Translations under genes and position numbers: made by a program
Virus record (IMG/VR): IMGVR_UViG_3300042539_001740
DNA: 64,000 nt
Reading direction: 5' to 3' (one strand)
Origin: a virus
Lineage: Duplodnaviria; Caudoviricetes
Shown here: piece by piece, positions 22,999 through 29,993 of the stretch
How positions within the stretch are numbered: position 1 is the stretch's first letter
Layout: every line of letters begins with the position of its first letter
The notes under the pieces: generated by a model
Databases searched by the model: none
What the model saw: only the letters and a program-made list of their open reading frames with translations
Told to the model about the DNA's origin: nothing

Positions 22999-23877
22999 AT
23001 GAAAACATTATTCCTAACTTGTATATACAATAACTTATTTGGTACTGAGTTTGGTGGTAGACCTAGTAGAGAAGAACATTATAAATATAGCTTGTTATCA
23101 CTATTGAGAATGACAAGTGCCGATTTTATTTGTTATACAAATCCAAGTGATTTGTCAAATCTGGAACATTTTTTTCATAATCAAAATGGAATATCAAAAG
23201 ATAAATTAAAATTCATTCCTTTCAAACTAAAGGATACAAAACATCATCATATTTTTTCGAAGTACAAAGACATTGATACGATAAAGAATGGTGATAGATG
23301 TTTTGAAATTCAGTACAATAAGTTTTTTTGGTTTTTCAATGAAACGTTAAGTTACGACAACTATTATTGGATAGATGCAGGTCTAAGTCATTGTGGTATT
23401 ATTCCCGACAAGTATTTGGTGAACAATAACACTTATCAAAGATATTTTAATTCTTACTTTTTTGATGACACCTTTTTAGATAGGTTAATTGAAAAATCGA
23501 AGGACAAGATTTTAGTAATTGGTAAATCTAATACTGGCTCAAATTTTTGGTCGAATACTTTACCCAATGAATATTATATAGAATACGATAGTTCGTATCA
23601 TATAATTGGTGGTTTATTTGGTGGAACAAAAAAAGTTATGAAAAAATTTGTTGAGGAGTTTGAAAGGATTTTCTTGTGGGTTACTGAAAAAGAAAAAAAA
23701 CTATATTCTGAGGAACAAATTATGACCACAATCTTTATGAATAATAAAGAATGGTTTAATTTATTTTCATTCGATGTTTGGTGGCACGAAAACAATTTAA
23801 CACCTGATTGTCCATCAAATTATTTAACAATTAACAAAAGTTTTTATAAAAGTTTGGAGGATATAAAAGGTGAATAA
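22999..23877 (+). CDS. HtrL/WlaTC-like glycosyltransferase
   Basis: YYWIDAG, IIGGLFGG and SEEQIM motifs; paralogous to the N-terminal half of the next ORF. Confidence 0.65.
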   Translation: MKTLFLTCIYNNLFGTEFGGRPSREEHYKYSLLSLLRMTSADFICYTNPSDLSNLEHFFHNQNGISKDKLKFIPFKLKDTKHHHIFSKYKDIDTIKNGDRCFEIQYNKFFWFFNETLSYDNYYWIDAGLSHCGIIPDKYLVNNNTYQRYFNSYFFDDTFLDRLIEKSKDKILVIGKSNTGSNFWSNTLPNEYYIEYDSSYHIIGGLFGGTKKVMKKFVEEFERIFLWVTEKEKKLYSEEQIMTTIFMNNKEWFNLFSFDVWWHENNLTPDCPSNYLTINKSFYKSLEDIKGE

Positions 23878-25543
23878 TTTAACATTAGTAACAGGATTAT
23901 GGGATATAGGTAGAGACCAATTAACTGAAGGTTGGTCAAGAACATACCAACACTATTTAGATAAGTTTGAAAGTTTACTCAAATTAGATGTAAACTTAAT
24001 AATATTTGGTGATACCGACTTACAAAGATTTGTAGAACAAAGAAGAGATTCACATAACACACAATTCATAATAAGACCAAAAGATTGGTTCATTAATAAT
24101 GAGTTCTATCCAAAGATACAAAAGATTAGGCAAGACCCAAGTTGGTACAATCAAGTTGGTTGGTTAAAAGATTCAACCCAAGCAAAACTTGAAATGTATA
24201 ATCCTTTGGTTATGTCCAAAATGTTCTTACTAAATGATGCAAGAATATTGGATAAGTTTAACTCAGATTATATGTTTTGGATTGATGCTGGTATTACAAA
24301 CACAATTCATCCTGGTTATTTTACCCACGATAAAGTATTAGACAAATTACCCAAATATGTAGATAGATTCCATTTCGTTTGTTTCCCTTATGAAACAAGT
24401 ACAGAGATTCACGGATTTGAAATAAATGCGATGAATAATTACACCAAAACAAAAACAAACAGAGTTGCAAGGGGTGGTTTCTTTGGTGGAAAAAAAGAAA
24501 GAATCAATGATATGAACTCATTGTATTATATGTTACTTAATGATTCATTATCAAAAGGATTTATGGGCACTGAAGAATCCATATTCACAATAATGACTTA
24601 TCTATATCCCCAACATATCAACTATTCAATGATAGAGGGTAATGGATTGATGGGTAAGTTTTTTGAGGATTTGAAGAACGACACATTGGAAGTATTAAAT
24701 GAAACACCTGAACCAATCAAATATCAAAGTAATGATATATCTAAGGTGGGTTTATATGTTATCACATTCAACTCACCAAAACAATTTGAGACCTTAATAA
24801 AATCAATGTTAGAATATGATAGGGATTTTATAACCAAACCAAGAAAGTTTTTGTTGGATAACTCAACAGATTTATCAACAACACCAAGATATAAAGAATT
24901 GTGTGAACAATATGGATTTGAACATATAAAGAAAGATAATATTGGCATAATGGGGGGTAGGATATTTGTTGCCGAACATTTTAATGATACCGATTTAGAT
25001 TTCTACTGGTTTTGGGAAGATGATATGTTTTTCTATCCAAAGAATGAAACTTGTAAAAATGGATTTAATAGATATGTAATCAACTTATATCAAAAAAGTT
25101 TAGAGATTATTCAAAAAGAAAAGTTCGATTTTCTTAAACTAAATTATACGGAGTTTTATGGTGACAATGGAACACAGTGGGCGTGGTACAATGTACCCCA
25201 AGATTTTAGACAAAAACATTGGCCAAACAATCCAAAACTTCCACAGATGGGATTAGACCCAAATGCACCTAAAACAAAGTTTGAATTCATCAGTACTCAT
25301 AAAGGTGTACCATATGTAGGTGGAGAAATCTACCTATCAAATTGGCCAATCGTTTTAAGTAAAGAAGGTAATTATAAATGTTATTTGGAAACAAAATGGG
25401 CTCACCCATTCGAACAGACCCTCATGTCGTATTGTTACCAAGAAACAATAAAAGGGAAAATTAAACCTGGTTTATTGTTGTTAACCCCCACCGAGCACAA
25501 TAGGTTCGACCATTACGATTCAAAATTGAGAAAAGAAAATTAA
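23870..25543 (+). CDS. Bifunctional HtrL/WlaTC-like + GT-A (GT2-like) glycosyltransferase
   Basis: N-terminal TLVTGLWDIGR, YNPLVMSK, FWIDAG, GGFFGG, TEESIF; C-terminal LYVITFNS...FWEDDMFF. Confidence 0.7.
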   Translation: MNNLTLVTGLWDIGRDQLTEGWSRTYQHYLDKFESLLKLDVNLIIFGDTDLQRFVEQRRDSHNTQFIIRPKDWFINNEFYPKIQKIRQDPSWYNQVGWLKDSTQAKLEMYNPLVMSKMFLLNDARILDKFNSDYMFWIDAGITNTIHPGYFTHDKVLDKLPKYVDRFHFVCFPYETSTEIHGFEINAMNNYTKTKTNRVARGGFFGGKKERINDMNSLYYMLLNDSLSKGFMGTEESIFTIMTYLYPQHINYSMIEGNGLMGKFFEDLKNDTLEVLNETPEPIKYQSNDISKVGLYVITFNSPKQFETLIKSMLEYDRDFITKPRKFLLDNSTDLSTTPRYKELCEQYGFEHIKKDNIGIMGGRIFVAEHFNDTDLDFYWFWEDDMFFYPKNETCKNGFNRYVINLYQKSLEIIQKEKFDFLKLNYTEFYGDNGTQWAWYNVPQDFRQKHWPNNPKLPQMGLDPNAPKTKFEFISTHKGVPYVGGEIYLSNWPIVLSKEGNYKCYLETKWAHPFEQTLMSYCYQETIKGKIKPGLLLLTPTEHNRFDHYDSKLRKEN

Positions 25544-25561
25544 AAAAAAATCAATAAAAGT

Positions 25562-25592
25562 TTTGGATATTTATAAAGAGATTGTATCTTTG
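25562..25592 (+). promoter_or_regulatory. Bacteroidota-type sigma promoter TTTG-N19-TATCTTTG, with an embedded TATTTAT
   Basis: tttg 25562-25565, tatctttg 25585-25592, tatttat 25568-25574. Confidence 0.65.
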
Positions 25593-25597
25593 TAAAA

Positions 25598-25805
25598 CAA
25601 TAAAGGGTTAGAATAATGGTCTTGGTTGATGACTTTCCTTAAAGTTAGGGTGTGTGGGCAACTCCTGATAGTCGAAAATGATAGACAGCTTGATTACATC
25701 GAAAGATGGTGACTATTGGCTCTCTGGTATATAGCCAAACCAGCGTGTCTCCAAAGTACGAAAATTGGAAACTTGAAAAGGGTGAGAATTATTCTCACCT
25801 TTTTA
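25598..25805 (+). ncRNA. Candidate structured non-coding RNA (~200 nt)
   Basis: GC-enriched island with no plus-strand ATG ORF longer than about 18 codons, bounded by a promoter and a terminator. Nested helices include catc-GAAA-gatg, ttggct/agccaa, agaca-gc/gc-g-tgtct and aagtt/aactt. Confidence 0.5.
25781..25805. terminator. Probably bidirectional intrinsic terminator
   Basis: ggtgagaat/attctcacc inverted repeat flanked by A- and T-tracts, between the candidate RNA and a convergent ORF. Confidence 0.75.
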
Positions 25806-26381
25806 TATTGTATATTTACCGCAATACTCATAATTTTTATCACGCATTTCAACCCCTTTAATTTGAGTTTTCAATGTTATCCTATATCTTTTACTTTCAA
25901 AGATATTCTTATGGACAACGAATGCGACTGTATATGGTACTATTTTCCCATTCTTGGTTATAGAATCTGTTTTGATAGTAAAACAAAGTTCTTTCTTGTT
26001 ATCCCAATTATTATTAACAATCGTATCATAAATTGAGGGTATTGATTTAAAAACTAAATCGACACCTTCGGTGGTAAAAGGATTGTATATATCAGGGTTA
26101 TTTTTGTTTTCTGGTTCGTCCTTTCTTCTATATCTACTACAATAATGGTCAGTTTGTTCAACAGTAAATCTACTTCTTTTATATTTGTAACTTTTTAATT
26201 CATCGTAATAACTCTCTATTATTTTTTTAGCATAATTAAATAGACCATCATTACATTTTAGTGTTGTTGACCCTTCATTTAATAAAATGAGATGATTTAA
26301 TTCATTTATGGAAATTTCTTTCACATAGATTTTTTTAGGGTAAAATTCCTCAAATAATATTTTTCTTATCAATTTTTCCAT
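25803..26381 (-). CDS. Hypothetical protein
   Basis: ORF-track ORF; ATG at 26381 (MEKLIRKILFEE) is preferred because it lies just downstream of a minus-strand TATTTAT. Confidence 0.7.
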   Translation of the reverse strand: MEKLIRKILFEEFYPKKIYVKEISINELNHLILLNEGSTTLKCNDGLFNYAKKIIESYYDELKSYKYKRSRFTVEQTDHYCSRYRRKDEPENKNNPDIYNPFTTEGVDLVFKSIPSIYDTIVNNNWDNKKELCFTIKTDSITKNGKIVPYTVAFVVHKNIFESKRYRITLKTQIKGVEMRDKNYEYCGKYTI

Positions 26382-26387
26382 ACAAAT

Positions 26388-26414
26388 ATAAATACCATAC
26401 AAAAGAGTATTTAT
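26388..26414. promoter_or_regulatory. Back-to-back TATTTAT motifs (ATAAATA-N13-TATTTAT)
   Basis: ataaata 26388-26394 and tatttat 26408-26414 between divergent genes. Confidence 0.6.
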
Positions 26415-26427
26415 ATATAAAAACTAA

Positions 26428-27180
26428 ATGGAATTCTTTATTAAAAAGAACGCAACCCTACCCCTCCTTAAGCTTCAGGTGGTGAAGAATGGCAGATTGG
26501 ATTATGATAATTTTATGTCGTTAATCGAAGAATCGGCATTATTCTTTTCAATGATGGATGTGGAGACTGGTGTTCCAAAGATTACATCGAGACCTGCGGG
26601 ATTTGTTGAAAAAACAAATGTTGACCCTAATGCTGACCCTGAATATTATTTATACTATCAATTTCAAAATAGAGACACAAATAGAGTAGGAAGATTCGAG
26701 GGTCAATTTATGTTAAGAAGTTCTGATGGTGTATTAATTTTACCTATTAGAGAAAAGTTATATATTAATGTACAAGAATCTTATATTGCTGATGATTTGG
26801 AATATGATAGTTGTTATGTATCAGAGTTTCCTTGTTGTATAAATGGCCCTGCAACTGGACTAACAATTAATCTTAATTTAACAAGTATTGTAACATCAGG
26901 TTCAGTAAATGTTGATTATGTTATAACTTCATCACAACAATTAAACAATCAATTAGATTTAACTTTCACAAATACATTAGGTCAAATAACTGGTACAGGT
27001 ATTACAATTACATCAGCAATAACAATTAATTCAGGTACAACAATAGGATATGCTCAAGTTATAACTGGTGATGATTATACGGATTTAGATGGTACATCAG
27101 TATTCACTAATTTAGCTGTAACTTATCCTATTTCCTACACTTTCGACATAACCACTAATAGTATTTTTCCTGATTTGTAA
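26428..27180 (+). CDS. Putative structural protein (BppU-like/Ig-like N-terminal domain)
   Basis: MEFFIKKNATLPLLKLQV...GRFEGQF...LILP followed by a Thr-rich beta domain. Confidence 0.5.
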   Translation: MEFFIKKNATLPLLKLQVVKNGRLDYDNFMSLIEESALFFSMMDVETGVPKITSRPAGFVEKTNVDPNADPEYYLYYQFQNRDTNRVGRFEGQFMLRSSDGVLILPIREKLYINVQESYIADDLEYDSCYVSEFPCCINGPATGLTINLNLTSIVTSGSVNVDYVITSSQQLNNQLDLTFTNTLGQITGTGITITSAITINSGTTIGYAQVITGDDYTDLDGTSVFTNLAVTYPISYTFDITTNSIFPDL

Positions 27181-27213
27181 TTTGACTTAATTAGTTCTTC
27201 ATTTTATATTTAT
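27181..27213 (+). promoter_or_regulatory. polB promoter: TTTGACT-N17-TATATTTAT
   Basis: ttgact 27182-27187, tatatt 27205-27210, overlapping tatttat 27207-27213. Confidence 0.55.
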
Positions 27214-27275: not shown

Positions 27276-29993
27276 ATGATTACACCTGAAGAAATCGAAA
27301 GTTTCTTAAACGGAAACGACCCCGAAGAGCACATCGTTGCCATAGAATATGATTGGGCAACAGAAAACATTTTCAAAATCAAAGAAATCCCTGGAAAAGG
27401 GAAAGAAATTAGAAAAGATACATTCACCCCATTTGCTTGGGTTGGTGACCTCCACGGACTTAACTTTTACAAATCATCCAAAGGACTTCAAAAAGAAGCA
27501 ATGACCAAACACGGAATCCTAATTGAGAAATTGGATACTGGTGGAAATGAACGATTAGAAAAAGGTCTAAAGTTTTTGGTTAAATCTTTAAAAGGATATA
27601 GAAGTTTAATGCAATTCTTCAAAGAAGGAGGAATTGACCCATATGGAGATAATACTAAAGAATACTTCCTTATACCATCACCAGTAGAACAATACCTTAT
27701 CCAAAAGGAAAAAAGATTGTTTAAGGGTTATGAAGAATACAATGACATTACAAGATTAGGATTCGACTTAGAAACGACCTCTTTAGAACCTAAAGATGGT
27801 CGAATCTTTATGATTGGAATCAAAACAAATAAAGGACTACAAAAAGTAATCGAATGTGCCAATGAAGACCAAGAACGAGCTGGTATTGTTGAGTTCTTTA
27901 GAACAATAGATGAAGTTAAACCATCAATCATTGGTGGATACAATTCATTCAACTTCGACTGGTATTGGATTATGGAAAGATGTAAAGCTCTACATTTGGA
28001 TATCAAAAAGATATGCAAAACTTTACATCCAGAATATAATATGAAACAAACCAAGGGTATGTTAAAACTTGCTAATGAAGTTGAGGAATATACACAGATT
28101 GGAATGTGGGGATATAATGTTATTGATATTCTACACTCCGTTAGAAGAGCACAAGCAATCAACTCAAACATCAAATCCGCTGGTCTTAAATATATTACCC
28201 AATACATCAATGCTGAAGCTGAAGACCGAGTTTATATTGGACATACTGATATCGGTTCAATGTACGCCAAGAAAGAAGAGTATTGGTTAAATGTTAAGAA
28301 TGGTAAATACAAAAAGGCCGACAAACCTGAATACAACGACTTGGATAAAAAATATCCTGGTATCTATATCAAAACAACTGGTGATAATATTGTTGAACGA
28401 TACTTGGATGATGACTTGGAAGAAACCTTGAAGGTGGATGATGAGTTTAATCAAGGAACATTTATGTTGGCATCGATGATTCCAACAACATATGAAAGAG
28501 TTTCCACCATGGGGACAGCCACTTTGTGGAAGATGCTTATGATGGCTTGGTCTTATAAGTATAAATTGGCCATCCCCCAAAAAGAACAAAAGAAAGATTT
28601 TGTTGGTGGATTATCAAGATTGTTAAGAGTGGGTTATTCGAAGGATGTATTAAAACTTGACTACTCATCTCTTTATCCATCTATTCAATTAGTACACGAT
28701 GTTTTCCCTGATTGTGATATTATGGGGGCTATGAAAGGTATGTTGTCTTATTTTAGAAGTGCTCGTATCAAATACAAGAACTTAGCAGCTGAATGGTATG
28801 ACAAGGATAAGAAAAAATCATTGTCCTACGATAGAAAACAATTACCCATTAAGATTTTTATCAACTCAATGTTTGGTGCTTTATCAGCTCCACAAGTGTT
28901 TGCTTGGGGTGATATGTATATGGGTGAACAGATTACTTGTACAGGAAGACAATATCTTCGTCAAATGTTAAAGTTCTTTATGAAGAGGGGTTATACTGCG
29001 TTGGTATGTGATACGGATGGTATGAACTTCTCATTACCTGAAGGTGGTGTTGATGATAGAGTTTATATTGGTAAAGGTCTTAATTGGAAAGTTAAGAAAG
29101 GAAAAGAATATAAAGGTTATGATGCTGATGTTGCTGAGTTCAACGACACCTTTATGAAGGGTGAAATGGCATTAGATTGTGATGGAACTTGGAAATCTTG
29201 TATTAATCTTGCTCGTAAGAATTATGCAACGATGGAACATAATGGTAAAATCAAATTGACTGGTAACTCAATCAAATCCAAAAAACTTCCATTATACATT
29301 GAGGAATATTTGGATAAAGCAATTAGATTATTATTGGAAGGTGAGGGACAGAAGTTTGTTGAATGGTATTATGAATACTTAACTAAAATCTATAACAAAG
29401 AAATCCCCCTTCTTAAAATTGCACAAAGAGCAAAAGTTAAGTTGAGTATTAAGGATTATATTGAGAGGTCAAAACAAACAACCAAATCAGGTGGTGCCAT
29501 GTCTAGAATGGCGCATATGGAACTGGCTATTAAACACAATCTAAAGGTGAATCTTGGTGAGGTGATTTATTATGTTAATAATGGTGTCAAAGCAAGTCAC
29601 GGAGATGTTCAAAAGAAGAAAGATGAAGTGGTATTAAATTGTTATATGTTAAATCCAAATGACATTGAGAATAATCCTGATATGTTGGGTGATTATAATG
29701 TAGCAAGAGCAATAACAACTTTCAATAATCGTATTGAACCTTTATTAGTTGTATTCAAACAAGAAGTTAGAGATACTTTAATTATTGATAACCCTGAGAA
29801 AAGACAATTCTATACACAACAACAATGTGAACTAATTAATGGAGTACCATTTGAAGAAAAAGACCAAGATAGAATCAAAGAGGATTTGTTAGATTTAGAA
29901 CCAAAAGAAATAGAGTATTGGAACAAAAGAGGAATTGACCCCAACTATATTTACGATTTGGCTGAAGAAGGATGGGAACAATATATTGATTAA
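27276..29993 (+). CDS. polB: Family B DNA polymerase
   Basis: ExoI FDLETT, ExoII GYNSFNFD, motif A LDYSSLYPSI, motif B KIFINSMFG, motif C CDTDG. No intein-sized insertion. Confidence 0.97.
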   Translation: MITPEEIESFLNGNDPEEHIVAIEYDWATENIFKIKEIPGKGKEIRKDTFTPFAWVGDLHGLNFYKSSKGLQKEAMTKHGILIEKLDTGGNERLEKGLKFLVKSLKGYRSLMQFFKEGGIDPYGDNTKEYFLIPSPVEQYLIQKEKRLFKGYEEYNDITRLGFDLETTSLEPKDGRIFMIGIKTNKGLQKVIECANEDQERAGIVEFFRTIDEVKPSIIGGYNSFNFDWYWIMERCKALHLDIKKICKTLHPEYNMKQTKGMLKLANEVEEYTQIGMWGYNVIDILHSVRRAQAINSNIKSAGLKYITQYINAEAEDRVYIGHTDIGSMYAKKEEYWLNVKNGKYKKADKPEYNDLDKKYPGIYIKTTGDNIVERYLDDDLEETLKVDDEFNQGTFMLASMIPTTYERVSTMGTATLWKMLMMAWSYKYKLAIPQKEQKKDFVGGLSRLLRVGYSKDVLKLDYSSLYPSIQLVHDVFPDCDIMGAMKGMLSYFRSARIKYKNLAAEWYDKDKKKSLSYDRKQLPIKIFINSMFGALSAPQVFAWGDMYMGEQITCTGRQYLRQMLKFFMKRGYTALVCDTDGMNFSLPEGGVDDRVYIGKGLNWKVKKGKEYKGYDADVAEFNDTFMKGEMALDCDGTWKSCINLARKNYATMEHNGKIKLTGNSIKSKKLPLYIEEYLDKAIRLLLEGEGQKFVEWYYEYLTKIYNKEIPLLKIAQRAKVKLSIKDYIERSKQTTKSGGAMSRMAHMELAIKHNLKVNLGEVIYYVNNGVKASHGDVQKKKDEVVLNCYMLNPNDIENNPDMLGDYNVARAITTFNNRIEPLLVVFKQEVRDTLIIDNPEKRQFYTQQQCELINGVPFEEKDQDRIKEDLLDLEPKEIEYWNKRGIDPNYIYDLAEEGWEQYID

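What the first reader, a model, noticed from the sequence alone, without database searches (positions are those of the whole stretch)
25562..25805. Candidate novel ~200-nt structured ncRNA with its own promoter(s) and terminator
Seen: the interval between convergent genes is a GC-richer island with no credible ORF. It follows a perfect Bacteroidota-type promoter (TTTG-N19-TATCTTTG) that also contains the phage TATTTAT motif, and it ends in a strong terminator. Nested helices: aagtt(25642-46)/aactt(25770-74) closing stem; agaca-gc(25683-89)/gc-g-tgtct(25743-50); catc-GAAA-gatg tetraloop hairpin (25697-708); ttggct/agccaa (25716-38), whose loop ctggt can alternatively pair with accag just downstream; ccaa/ttgg; and a gg-GCAA-ct tetraloop. 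It does not resemble tRNA, tmRNA, group I/II introns or ribozymes that I can recognise. Inference: a phage trans-acting RNA expressed both early and late.
Basis: partly seen in the sequence, partly recalled or inferred. Interest (0 to 1): 0.65.

Follow-up and report, generated by a model that had tools for sequence, protein, structure and literature searches.

The report
Phage pseudoknotted RNA paired with nuclease-like gene
An uncultured lake phage encodes a roughly 205-base RNA whose folded shape is preserved by matching mutations across about 27 relatives, matches no catalogued RNA family, and always sits tail-to-tail with a gene for an uncharacterised protein that weakly resembles RNA-cutting toxins, so the two probably work as a pair.

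Summary
The stretch 25544-25802 is a non-coding gap between convergent genes, richer in G+C than its surroundings. It has an exact Bacteroidota-type promoter and a hairpin-plus-T terminator.

Homologues from 27 distinct sequences support a core made of a three-way junction (P1, P2, P3) followed by an H-type pseudoknot (P4, PK). 93.6% of cells pair, against 30-49% for slid controls. 21 of 22 pairs change on both sides.

The closing stem, agaca/tgtct and ccaa/ttgg are not conserved.

Rfam 15 has no match, and no tRNA or tmRNA is found.

New here: the RNA is the fixed neighbour of a convergent protein of about 190 aa with no known family.
- All seven family members sampled through the protein carry the RNA 45-110 nt past the stop codon.
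- 50 related phage records lack both.
- Two AlphaFold models give T4 RegB and RelE-type toxins as top matches, but weakly (Z 4.5-4.9).
- The RNA uses a host-type promoter. The protein gene has a phage motif, TATTTATA, just before its ATG.

Best reading: an RNA-protein module in which the RNA binds and restrains a nuclease-like protein. The RNA and the linkage are shown. Binding, nuclease activity and expression are inferred.

The parts
25562..25592 (+). Bacteroidota-type promoter: -33 TTTG (25562-65), 19-nt spacer, -7 TATCTTTG (25585-92)
   Evidence: Exact in the window. TTTG-N19/20-TAnnTTT[GA] is found upstream of the RNA in most loci that hold upstream DNA, across all subgroups. Function not tested.
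25568..25575 (+). TATTTATA, the phage's own upstream motif, inside the promoter spacer
   Evidence: 10 of 18 sense occurrences lie within 80 nt upstream of gene starts. Here it is kept only in the nearest subgroup.
25598..25805 (+). Predicted transcript, about 205 nt. Both ends are inferred from the promoter and terminator, not measured.
   Evidence: Promoter and terminator positions. The strand is fixed by many G-U pairs, which would be A-C mismatches on the other strand.
25630..25647 (+). Pa hairpin tgactt/aagtta (optional 5' domain)
   Evidence: RNAalifold: conserved in the near subgroup. It is absent in subgroups whose promoter lies 12-24 nt from the core.
25649..25666 (+). Pb variable hairpin (optional 5' domain).
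   Evidence: pairs 64-81 to 70-76, some with changes on both sides. Imperfect in the window itself.
25668..25716 (+). Three-way junction. P1 is atagtc 25668-73 with gactat 25711-16. J1/2 is gaaaatga 25674-81. P2 is ag/ct, 25683-84 with 25689-90. J2/3 is 25691-96. P3 is catc-gaaa-gatg 25697-25708. J3/1 is gt 25709-10.
   Evidence: in P1 all 6 pairs, in P2 all 3 and in P3 3 of 4 change on both sides. Junction bases A25675, A25677, A25678, A25693, T25695, A25696, G25709 and T25710 are at least 90% conserved in 27 sequences.
25718..25743 (+). H-type pseudoknot. P4 is ggct 25718-21 with agcc 25733-36. PK is ctggt 25724-28 with accag 25739-43.
   Evidence: in P4 all 4 pairs and in PK all 5 pairs change on both sides. 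PK cells are 97.7% paired.
25776..25804 (.). Hairpin plus T run. It is the terminator of the RNA and, read on the other strand (followed by TTTT), of the convergent gene.
   Evidence: A run of at least 5 T follows the core by 31-90 nt in 26 of 27 distinct homologues; L157 has none within the 170 nt scanned.
25803..26381 (-). Partner gene, 192 aa, with no Pfam, PHROG, NCBIfam or PADLOC family. The likely start is the ATG at 26381.
   Evidence: Family of 96 clusters. AF2 pLDDT 89.9. Top VIA matches are T4 RegB and RelE-type toxins at Z 4.5-4.9.
26387..26394 (-). TATTTATA 5 nt before the partner gene's ATG
   Evidence: The same motif (0-1 mismatch) lies 3-9 nt before the ATG in every locus where the gene start was found.

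Best explanation
This is the RNA half of a two-part phage module. A roughly 205-nt non-coding RNA is transcribed by the host polymerase from a Bacteroidota-type promoter and ends at a hairpin terminator. Its conserved core is a three-way junction with near-invariant junction bases, stacked next to an H-type pseudoknot. The convergent gene that shares the terminator encodes a protein of about 190 aa that is probably a RegB/RelE-like metal-independent endoribonuclease. That gene is driven by the phage's own TATTTATA motif.

I propose that the RNA is made first, binds the protein through the junction-pseudoknot core, and holds it inactive or confines its activity. It would then be an RNA antidote or regulator of a nuclease, working like a type III toxin-antitoxin pair without being a member of the known families.

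Shown: the structure, its conservation, the promoter and terminator motifs, and the genomic linkage. Inferred: transcription, nuclease activity, binding, and the direction of control.

My odds: real structured RNA 0.95; functional partner of the neighbouring protein 0.7; specifically an inhibitor 0.35-0.4.
For: Structure:
- 27 distinct sequences, 93.6% of cells paired against 30-49% slid. 21 of 22 pairs change on both sides. No shuffle of 500 reaches the observed value on four of the five measures; for further pair types, 7 of 500 do (earlier rounds).
- P2 and PK covaried on an alignment fitted only to P1, P3 and P4. P4 covaried on alignments not fitted to it.
- Invariant bases cluster in the junction.

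Linkage:
- Every RNA locus found through synteny has a homologous convergent ORF.
- Sampling through the protein alone (P0002, P0004, P0014, P0017, P0026, P0036, P0058) gave the RNA 45-110 nt past the stop on the opposite strand every time.
- 50 related phage records, four of them at least 90% complete, have neither the RNA nor the protein.

Protein:
- Two independent AF2 models (pLDDT 82.6 and 89.9) both rank T4 RegB first, followed by RelE, HigB, YoeB, ParE and CdiA-CT toxins.
- Near-invariant residues are E36, H79, R83, R86, E105 and K175.
- hhalign puts H79 and R83 on RegB residues 48 and 52. His48 is a catalytic residue according to PMC3014915.

Timing:
- The RNA has a host-type promoter. 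The protein gene has TATTTATA 3-9 nt before its ATG in all loci.

Precedent: PMC3014915 raises the possibility of an anti-RegB partner.
Against: - The fold match is weak. Z under 5 is below what the tool calls meaningful, Foldseek finds nothing, and the hhalign match is not significant (E 0.13).
- No sequence model of RegB, RelE or any defence family hits the protein.
- A few RNA copies have no adjacent protein: L157/L207, and the second copy in L248/249.
- Nothing shows that the RNA is transcribed or binds the protein. The RNA runs were contigs and uninformative.
- The layout is convergent and usually single-copy, unlike known RNA-antitoxin systems.
- The alignment used for the final count was fitted by a model holding P1, P2, P3 and PK, which leans towards those helices.
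Confidence: 0.4

Rival explanations
1. The RNA is a cofactor, guide or preferred substrate of the neighbouring protein rather than its inhibitor. The two form an active ribonucleoprotein, or the protein processes the RNA into its working form.
For: The same linkage evidence applies as for the best explanation. The tandem RNA units behind one promoter in L114-L116 would need processing. The near-invariant junction bases fit a binding site as well as they fit an inhibitory site.
Against: No guide-like variable segment was seen. The variable parts are helices that covary, not free single strands. Different promoter classes for the RNA and the protein are not expected for an obligate holoenzyme.
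Confidence: 0.2
2. The RNA acts on the host on its own. It could be a decoy or mimic of a host RNA, for instance a mimic of an RNA antitoxin that disarms a host abortive-infection system. The neighbouring gene would then travel with it only as part of an accessory cassette.
For: Phage pseudo-ToxI RNAs that mimic antitoxins are known (PMC3594212, listed; not read here). Some RNA copies lie away from the protein. The early, host-type promoter fits a takeover function.
Against: Strict co-occurrence and co-absence, with the same relative position, hold down to 17-25% protein identity. That is hard to explain without a functional tie. No host counterpart of the RNA is known, and Rfam has none.
Confidence: 0.17
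3. It is a small-molecule-sensing RNA or a self-cleaving ribozyme.
For: A three-way junction with invariant junction bases next to a pseudoknot is typical of ligand pockets and catalytic cores.
Against: No gene lies downstream on the same strand for it to regulate, because the next gene is convergent. No riboswitch or ribozyme model matches, even at E up to 10. The junction strands (GAAAAnGA / nAAUA / GU) lack the hammerhead core CUGANGA / GAA / H.
Confidence: 0.08
4. It is only an antisense or terminator-level regulator of the convergent gene, and the upstream structure is incidental.
For: The two transcripts would share the terminator hairpin and so be complementary over about 25-30 nt. Convergent type I toxin-antitoxin pairs use such 3' overlaps (my own knowledge).
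Against: Selection clearly acts on the junction and pseudoknot, which lie outside the overlap. The overlap is no more than any bidirectional terminator gives.
Confidence: 0.05

Closest known systems
Type III toxin-antitoxin systems (ToxIN, CptIN, TenpIN; also AvcID)
   Same: A protein, here a candidate endoribonuclease, is paired with a pseudoknotted non-coding RNA encoded beside it. They are separated by a terminator and carried on a mobile element. The likely working principle is that the RNA binds and restrains the protein.
   Different: The known systems place short tandem RNA repeats (about 36-50 nt) upstream of the toxin on the same strand, and the toxin cuts them into units. Here there is one unit of about 200 nt (two in one subgroup). 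It is convergent with the gene and has its own promoter of a different class. The protein does not match ToxN, CptN or TenpN models (PADLOC and Pfam).
Phage T4 RegB and the RelE/YoeB/HigB family of mRNA endoribonucleases
   Same: They are the top structural matches of the partner protein in two models. The protein is basic with a conserved His/Arg/Glu/Lys set and is phage-encoded. The aligned His corresponds to RegB His48.
   Different: There is no significant sequence similarity, and PF10715 (REGB_T4) does not hit. The protein has an extra N-terminal region of about 65 residues. RegB has no known RNA partner, and RelE-type toxins have protein antitoxins.
Orphan structured phage or metagenome RNA motifs in Rfam
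   Same: It is a conserved, covariation-supported structured RNA of unknown function from uncultured phages.
   Different: None of the 4227 Rfam 15 models matches. This RNA also has a fixed protein partner, which most orphan motifs lack.
T4 stable RNAs rnaC and rnaD
   Same: They are small stable phage RNAs of unknown function.
   Different: The model R2 finds nothing in the T4 region that holds them. They lie in a tRNA cluster, whereas this window has no tRNA gene.

Membership tests
Any Rfam 15 family | Score at or above the family's gathering threshold | tested here: not met
   0 hits in the whole window. At E up to 10 only terminator-like chance hits appear, at 13-23 bits against thresholds of 38-106.
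tRNA / tmRNA | Cloverleaf or tRNA-like domain with tag reading frame | tested here: not met
   ARAGORN finds none in the window.
Type III toxin-antitoxin (ToxIN-like) | The antitoxin is an array of short tandem RNA repeats | tested here: not met
   One unit in most loci. There are two units of about 195 nt in L114-L116.
Type III toxin-antitoxin (ToxIN-like) | The RNA gene lies upstream of the toxin on the same strand, with a terminator between | tested here: not met
   Convergent in all loci. A terminator is shared.
Type III toxin-antitoxin (ToxIN-like) | The antitoxin RNA folds as a pseudoknot | tested here: met
   All PK and P4 pairs change on both sides.
Type III toxin-antitoxin (ToxIN-like) | The RNA binds and neutralises a toxic endoribonuclease | not testable with these tools
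   This needs co-expression and binding assays.
RegB / RelE-superfamily endoribonuclease (partner protein) | Sequence model match (PF10715 REGB_T4; RelE/ParE Pfam families) | tested here: not met
   No Pfam hit at E up to 1. PF10715 finds nothing in the whole record. hhalign against T4 RegB gives E 0.13.
RegB / RelE-superfamily endoribonuclease (partner protein) | Two helices packed on an antiparallel sheet, as in RelE/YoeB/RegB | tested here: inconclusive
   RegB ranks first at Z 4.9 and 4.5 with 111-112 residues aligned. About 30 of the top 50 rows are RelE-type toxins. All Z values are under 5, and Foldseek finds nothing.
RegB / RelE-superfamily endoribonuclease (partner protein) | Conserved acid-base residues (His/Glu/Arg/Lys) at the active site | tested here: inconclusive
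   E36, H79, R83, R86, E105 and K175 are at least 90% conserved in 65 sequences. Their spatial clustering and their activity were not tested.
Hammerhead ribozyme | Junction strands CUGANGA, GAA and a single H at the cleavage site | tested here: not met
   The junction strands are GAAAAnGA, nAAUA and GU. No Rfam hammerhead model hits.
Bacteroidota sigma-A promoter | -33 TTTG and -7 TAnnTTTG about 19-21 nt apart | tested here: met
   Exact at 25562-25592 and conserved upstream of the RNA across subgroups. Activity not tested.

The most novel reading that the evidence does not exclude
A new class of RNA-protein pair: a RelE/RegB-fold nuclease whose antidote or regulator is a single, large, pseudoknotted RNA rather than a protein. 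It is carried by phages, with the RNA under host-polymerase control and the nuclease under phage control. This would be the first RNA partner for this nuclease superfamily. It would also be a concrete answer to the old question of whether RegB-like phage nucleases have an antagonist.
Probability: 0.3. Interest if true: 0.8.

Novelty: new variant of a known kind. Interest (0 to 1): 0.62.

Why it matters
- It adds a well-supported structured RNA family that no catalogue holds, from phages that recur in many lake metagenomes. The stretch was found whole in 18 runs from 18 studies, 2016-2025.
- It links that RNA to a protein family of 96 clusters with no annotation.
- If the protein is a RegB/RelE-type nuclease controlled by the RNA, this widens the idea of RNA antitoxins beyond ToxN-like proteins. 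It would also show a phage timing a dangerous enzyme by splitting antidote and enzyme between host and phage promoters.
- Even if the mechanism differs, the pair can be tested directly by cloning two small genes.

Tried and rejected
- Thermodynamic stability of the single sequence is not significant on either strand (z -1.25 and -1.78).
- Neither blastn of the element nor blastn of 5 kb around it matched the cultured-phage collection. tblastn of the partner protein against it also found nothing.
- The search for related loci with the partner protein alone found nothing.
- RNA-seq:
  - One run labelled RNA by guess covers the region with an 889-nt contig, but it may be DNA.
  - A marine metatranscriptome has no cover over 25610-26176.
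  - Only contigs were available, so nothing can be said about transcription.
- The model R2 found no RNA in 50 related phage records. I take that as absence only together with the absence of the protein.
- Three look-ups of partner-family proteins gave nothing usable: P0010 returned too little DNA, and P0013 and P0045 returned none. P0020 gave only a marginal RNA hit (E 0.048).
- The ESM Atlas feature search gave only sub-threshold rows (0.78). The Atlas fold search gave TM below 0.5.
Whether the module occurs in bacterial genomes was therefore not tested.
- The small-ORF explanation is rejected.
- A reading on the opposite strand is rejected, because of the many G-U pairs.

Full report
**What is at the coordinates**

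The window is part of a 194.5-kb uncultured virus record. The record recurs in many lake metagenomes. The stretch 25544-25802 lies between the stop of a + strand HtrL/YibB-like glycosyltransferase gene (23870-25543) and the stop of a - strand gene (25803-26381).

G+C rises to 0.37-0.42 against about 0.25-0.33 around it. TTTG-N19-TATCTTTG stands at 25562-25592 and TATTTATA at 25568-25575. A hairpin followed by a T run is at 25776-25804.

Rfam 15 gives no hit at gathering thresholds in the whole window. At E up to 10 it gives only terminator-like noise. ARAGORN finds no tRNA or tmRNA. The minimum-free-energy fold of the single sequence is not unusual (z -1.25), so the case rests on comparison with relatives.

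**Homologues**

The upstream glycosyltransferase has over 500 relatives in IMG/VR, and 80 loci were fetched. nhmmer found the intergenic element only in the closest of them.

The alignment showed three things:
- a conserved promoter;
- an invariant stretch AUACAUC-GAAA-GAUGGUG;
- visible compensatory changes.

More examples came from two exact-pattern scans, from two covariance models (R1 and R2), and above all from the neighbouring protein. Together they gave 27 distinct sequences in about six subgroups.

**Structure**

The conserved core in the window spans 25668-25743. It has these parts:
- P1: atagtc 25668-73 with gactat 25711-16.
- J1/2: a junction strand, GAAAAnGA.
- P2: a short variable hairpin, only 2 bp in this member.
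- J2/3: nAAUA.
- P3: catc-GAAA-gatg, 25697-25708.
- J3/1: GU.
- P4: ggct 25718-21 with agcc 25733-36. Its loop, ctggt 25724-28, pairs with accag 25739-43 to form an H-type pseudoknot (PK).

On the final alignment (A9):
- 93.6% of 564 cells form standard pairs, against 30-49% when partners are slid by 1-3 columns.
- 21 of 22 pairs have changes on both sides.
- No shuffle of 500 reaches the observed value for percent paired, pairs or cells with changes on both sides, or the covariation score; for further pair types 7 of 500 do.

The alignment was fitted by a model that holds P1, P2, P3 and PK, which biases towards those helices. Two checks limit that concern:
- P2 and PK already covaried on an alignment fitted only to P1, P3 and P4.
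- P4 covaries on alignments not fitted to it.

Many G-U pairs fix the strand as +. Bases conserved at 90% or more are concentrated in the three junction strands.

The 5' domain consists of hairpins Pa and Pb. It is missing in subgroups whose promoter lies 12-24 nt from the core, so it is optional. The 3' tail carries a variable hairpin before the terminator in at least two subgroups, seen by eye in the sequences.

Confirmed: the tetraloop hairpin, ttggct/agccaa, and the loop-to-downstream pairing.

Not conserved: the closing stem aagtt/aactt, agaca-gc/gc-g-tgtct and ccaa/ttgg. They pair in 51.5% of cells, against 50.5% for shuffles. aagtt pairs locally with tgactt instead.

A small ORF does not explain the conservation. 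Stop-free stretches are short and lie in different frames and strands among homologues.

**The neighbour**

In every locus found through synteny, a gene of 160-217 aa on the opposite strand ends at the RNA's terminator. These proteins are homologous (A3). They share an N-terminal M[RK]xLI[RK][KQ]IL motif. The window gene therefore probably starts at the ATG at 26381.

An exhaustive profile search found 96 clusters. All members that were examined are unnamed metagenome proteins.

To test the linkage without using the RNA, I fetched contigs for family members across the whole range of similarity. P0002, P0004, P0014, P0017, P0026, P0036 and P0058 all carry the RNA core 45-110 nt past the stop codon on the opposite strand.

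Conversely, 50 related phage records, including four at least 90% complete, have neither the RNA nor the protein.

There are exceptions:
- L157/L207 hold a copy with no adjacent protein, although that genome also has a full module elsewhere.
- L248/L249 hold a second, weaker copy upstream of the gene.
- L114-L116 carry two tandem units behind one promoter.

**What the protein may be**

Pfam, PHROGs, NCBIfam and PADLOC have no match.

Two AlphaFold models were made, with pLDDT 82.6 from 12 sequences and 89.9 from 65. Foldseek gives no hit for either.

An exhaustive structural alignment ranks T4 endoribonuclease RegB first both times:
- first model: Z 4.9, rmsd 4.0, 111 residues aligned;
- second model: Z 4.5, rmsd 4.2, 112 residues aligned.

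RegB is followed mostly by RelE, HigB, YoeB, ParE, YafQ and CdiA-CT toxins. By the tool's own guidance these Z values are too low to prove a shared fold. What is suggestive is the consistency of the list.

The family keeps E36, H79, R83, R86, P101, E105, K175 and G176. hhalign, without significance (E 0.13), lays H79 and R83 on RegB positions 48 and 52. The T4 review PMC3014915 says three relevant things:
- His48 and His68 are RegB's catalytic residues.
- RegB resembles RelE and YoeB.
- An anti-RegB partner might exist.

I treat 'RegB/RelE-like nuclease' as about even odds.

**Promoters**

TTTG-N19/20-TAnnTTT[GA] precedes the RNA in all subgroups where upstream DNA exists.

TATTTATA in the sense orientation lies within 80 nt upstream of 10 gene starts out of its 18 occurrences in the window. 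Only 2.6% of positions would qualify by chance. The same motif sits 3-9 nt before the ATG of the partner gene in every locus where the gene start was found.

So the RNA and the protein use different promoter classes. That the first is early and the second late is inference.

The TATTTATA inside the RNA's promoter is kept only in the nearest subgroup. The claim of 'early and late' expression is therefore weak.

**Mechanism**

The most economical reading is an RNA-protein module. The RNA is made by host polymerase, binds the nuclease-like protein through the junction-pseudoknot core, and restrains it. It would work like a type III toxin-antitoxin pair.

It is not a member of the known type III families. 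There is no repeat array, the orientation is convergent, and the protein does not match their toxins.

The rivals, listed with odds in their own section, are:
- an activating or guiding RNA, or a substrate;
- an independent host-directed decoy;
- a ligand sensor or ribozyme;
- simple antisense control through the shared terminator.

**Limits**

- There is no transcript evidence, because the RNA runs were contigs only.
- There is no cultured relative. The DNA polymerase is about 24% identical to those of Salinibacter and Nostoc phages, so the host is unknown. 'Bacteroidota' rests on the promoter type alone.
- Bacterial genomes could not be scanned for the module.

Noticed in passing
window, e.g. 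11253, 26408, 27207, 38332, 42034, 44633, 46141 (+); 2630, 26387, 32071 (-): TATTTATA in the sense orientation lies within 80 nt upstream of 10 gene starts out of its 18 occurrences, often only 5-15 nt before the start codon. It looks like the phage's own promoter or initiation motif. Its reverse complement is T4's late TATAAATA, which in the sense orientation precedes only 2 starts.
   Followed up: partly
L012:7363-7590: The promoter and 5' hairpin are the same as in the window RNA, but the 3' body is different and the model R2 does not recognise it. A co-directional 172-aa gene follows instead of the convergent partner. This may be a swapped RNA-protein cassette.
   Followed up: partly
L114:2100-2600 (- strand); also L115, L116: There are two tandem RNA units of about 195 nt, each with a terminator. 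Only the first is behind a promoter. Upstream lies a duplicated promoter-plus-leader, as also seen in L052:6860-7000.
   Followed up: partly
L207 and L115 (both in record G054); L248:946-1029: One phage genome can hold several diverged copies of the RNA. Some lie away from the partner gene, and one lies upstream of it and is transcribed divergently.
   Followed up: partly
L123 (G002:C1:63146-63223): The partner protein's N-terminal motif M[RK]xLI[RK][KQ]IL also begins an unrelated 327-aa ORF in a related phage that lacks the module. It may be a shared N-terminal tag or helix.
   Followed up: no
window 24800-27200 against run X20: One metatranscriptome contig joins 25237 to 26734 and skips 1496 nt that include the RNA and its partner. 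This is as expected from a relative without the cassette. The likeness is low and the flank is short, so it is only a hint that the module is an insertion.
   Followed up: no
window 27276-29993: The family B DNA polymerase is only about 24% identical to its nearest cultured relatives (Salinibacter and Nostoc phages). It gives little support for calling this phage a close T4 relative.
   Followed up: partly
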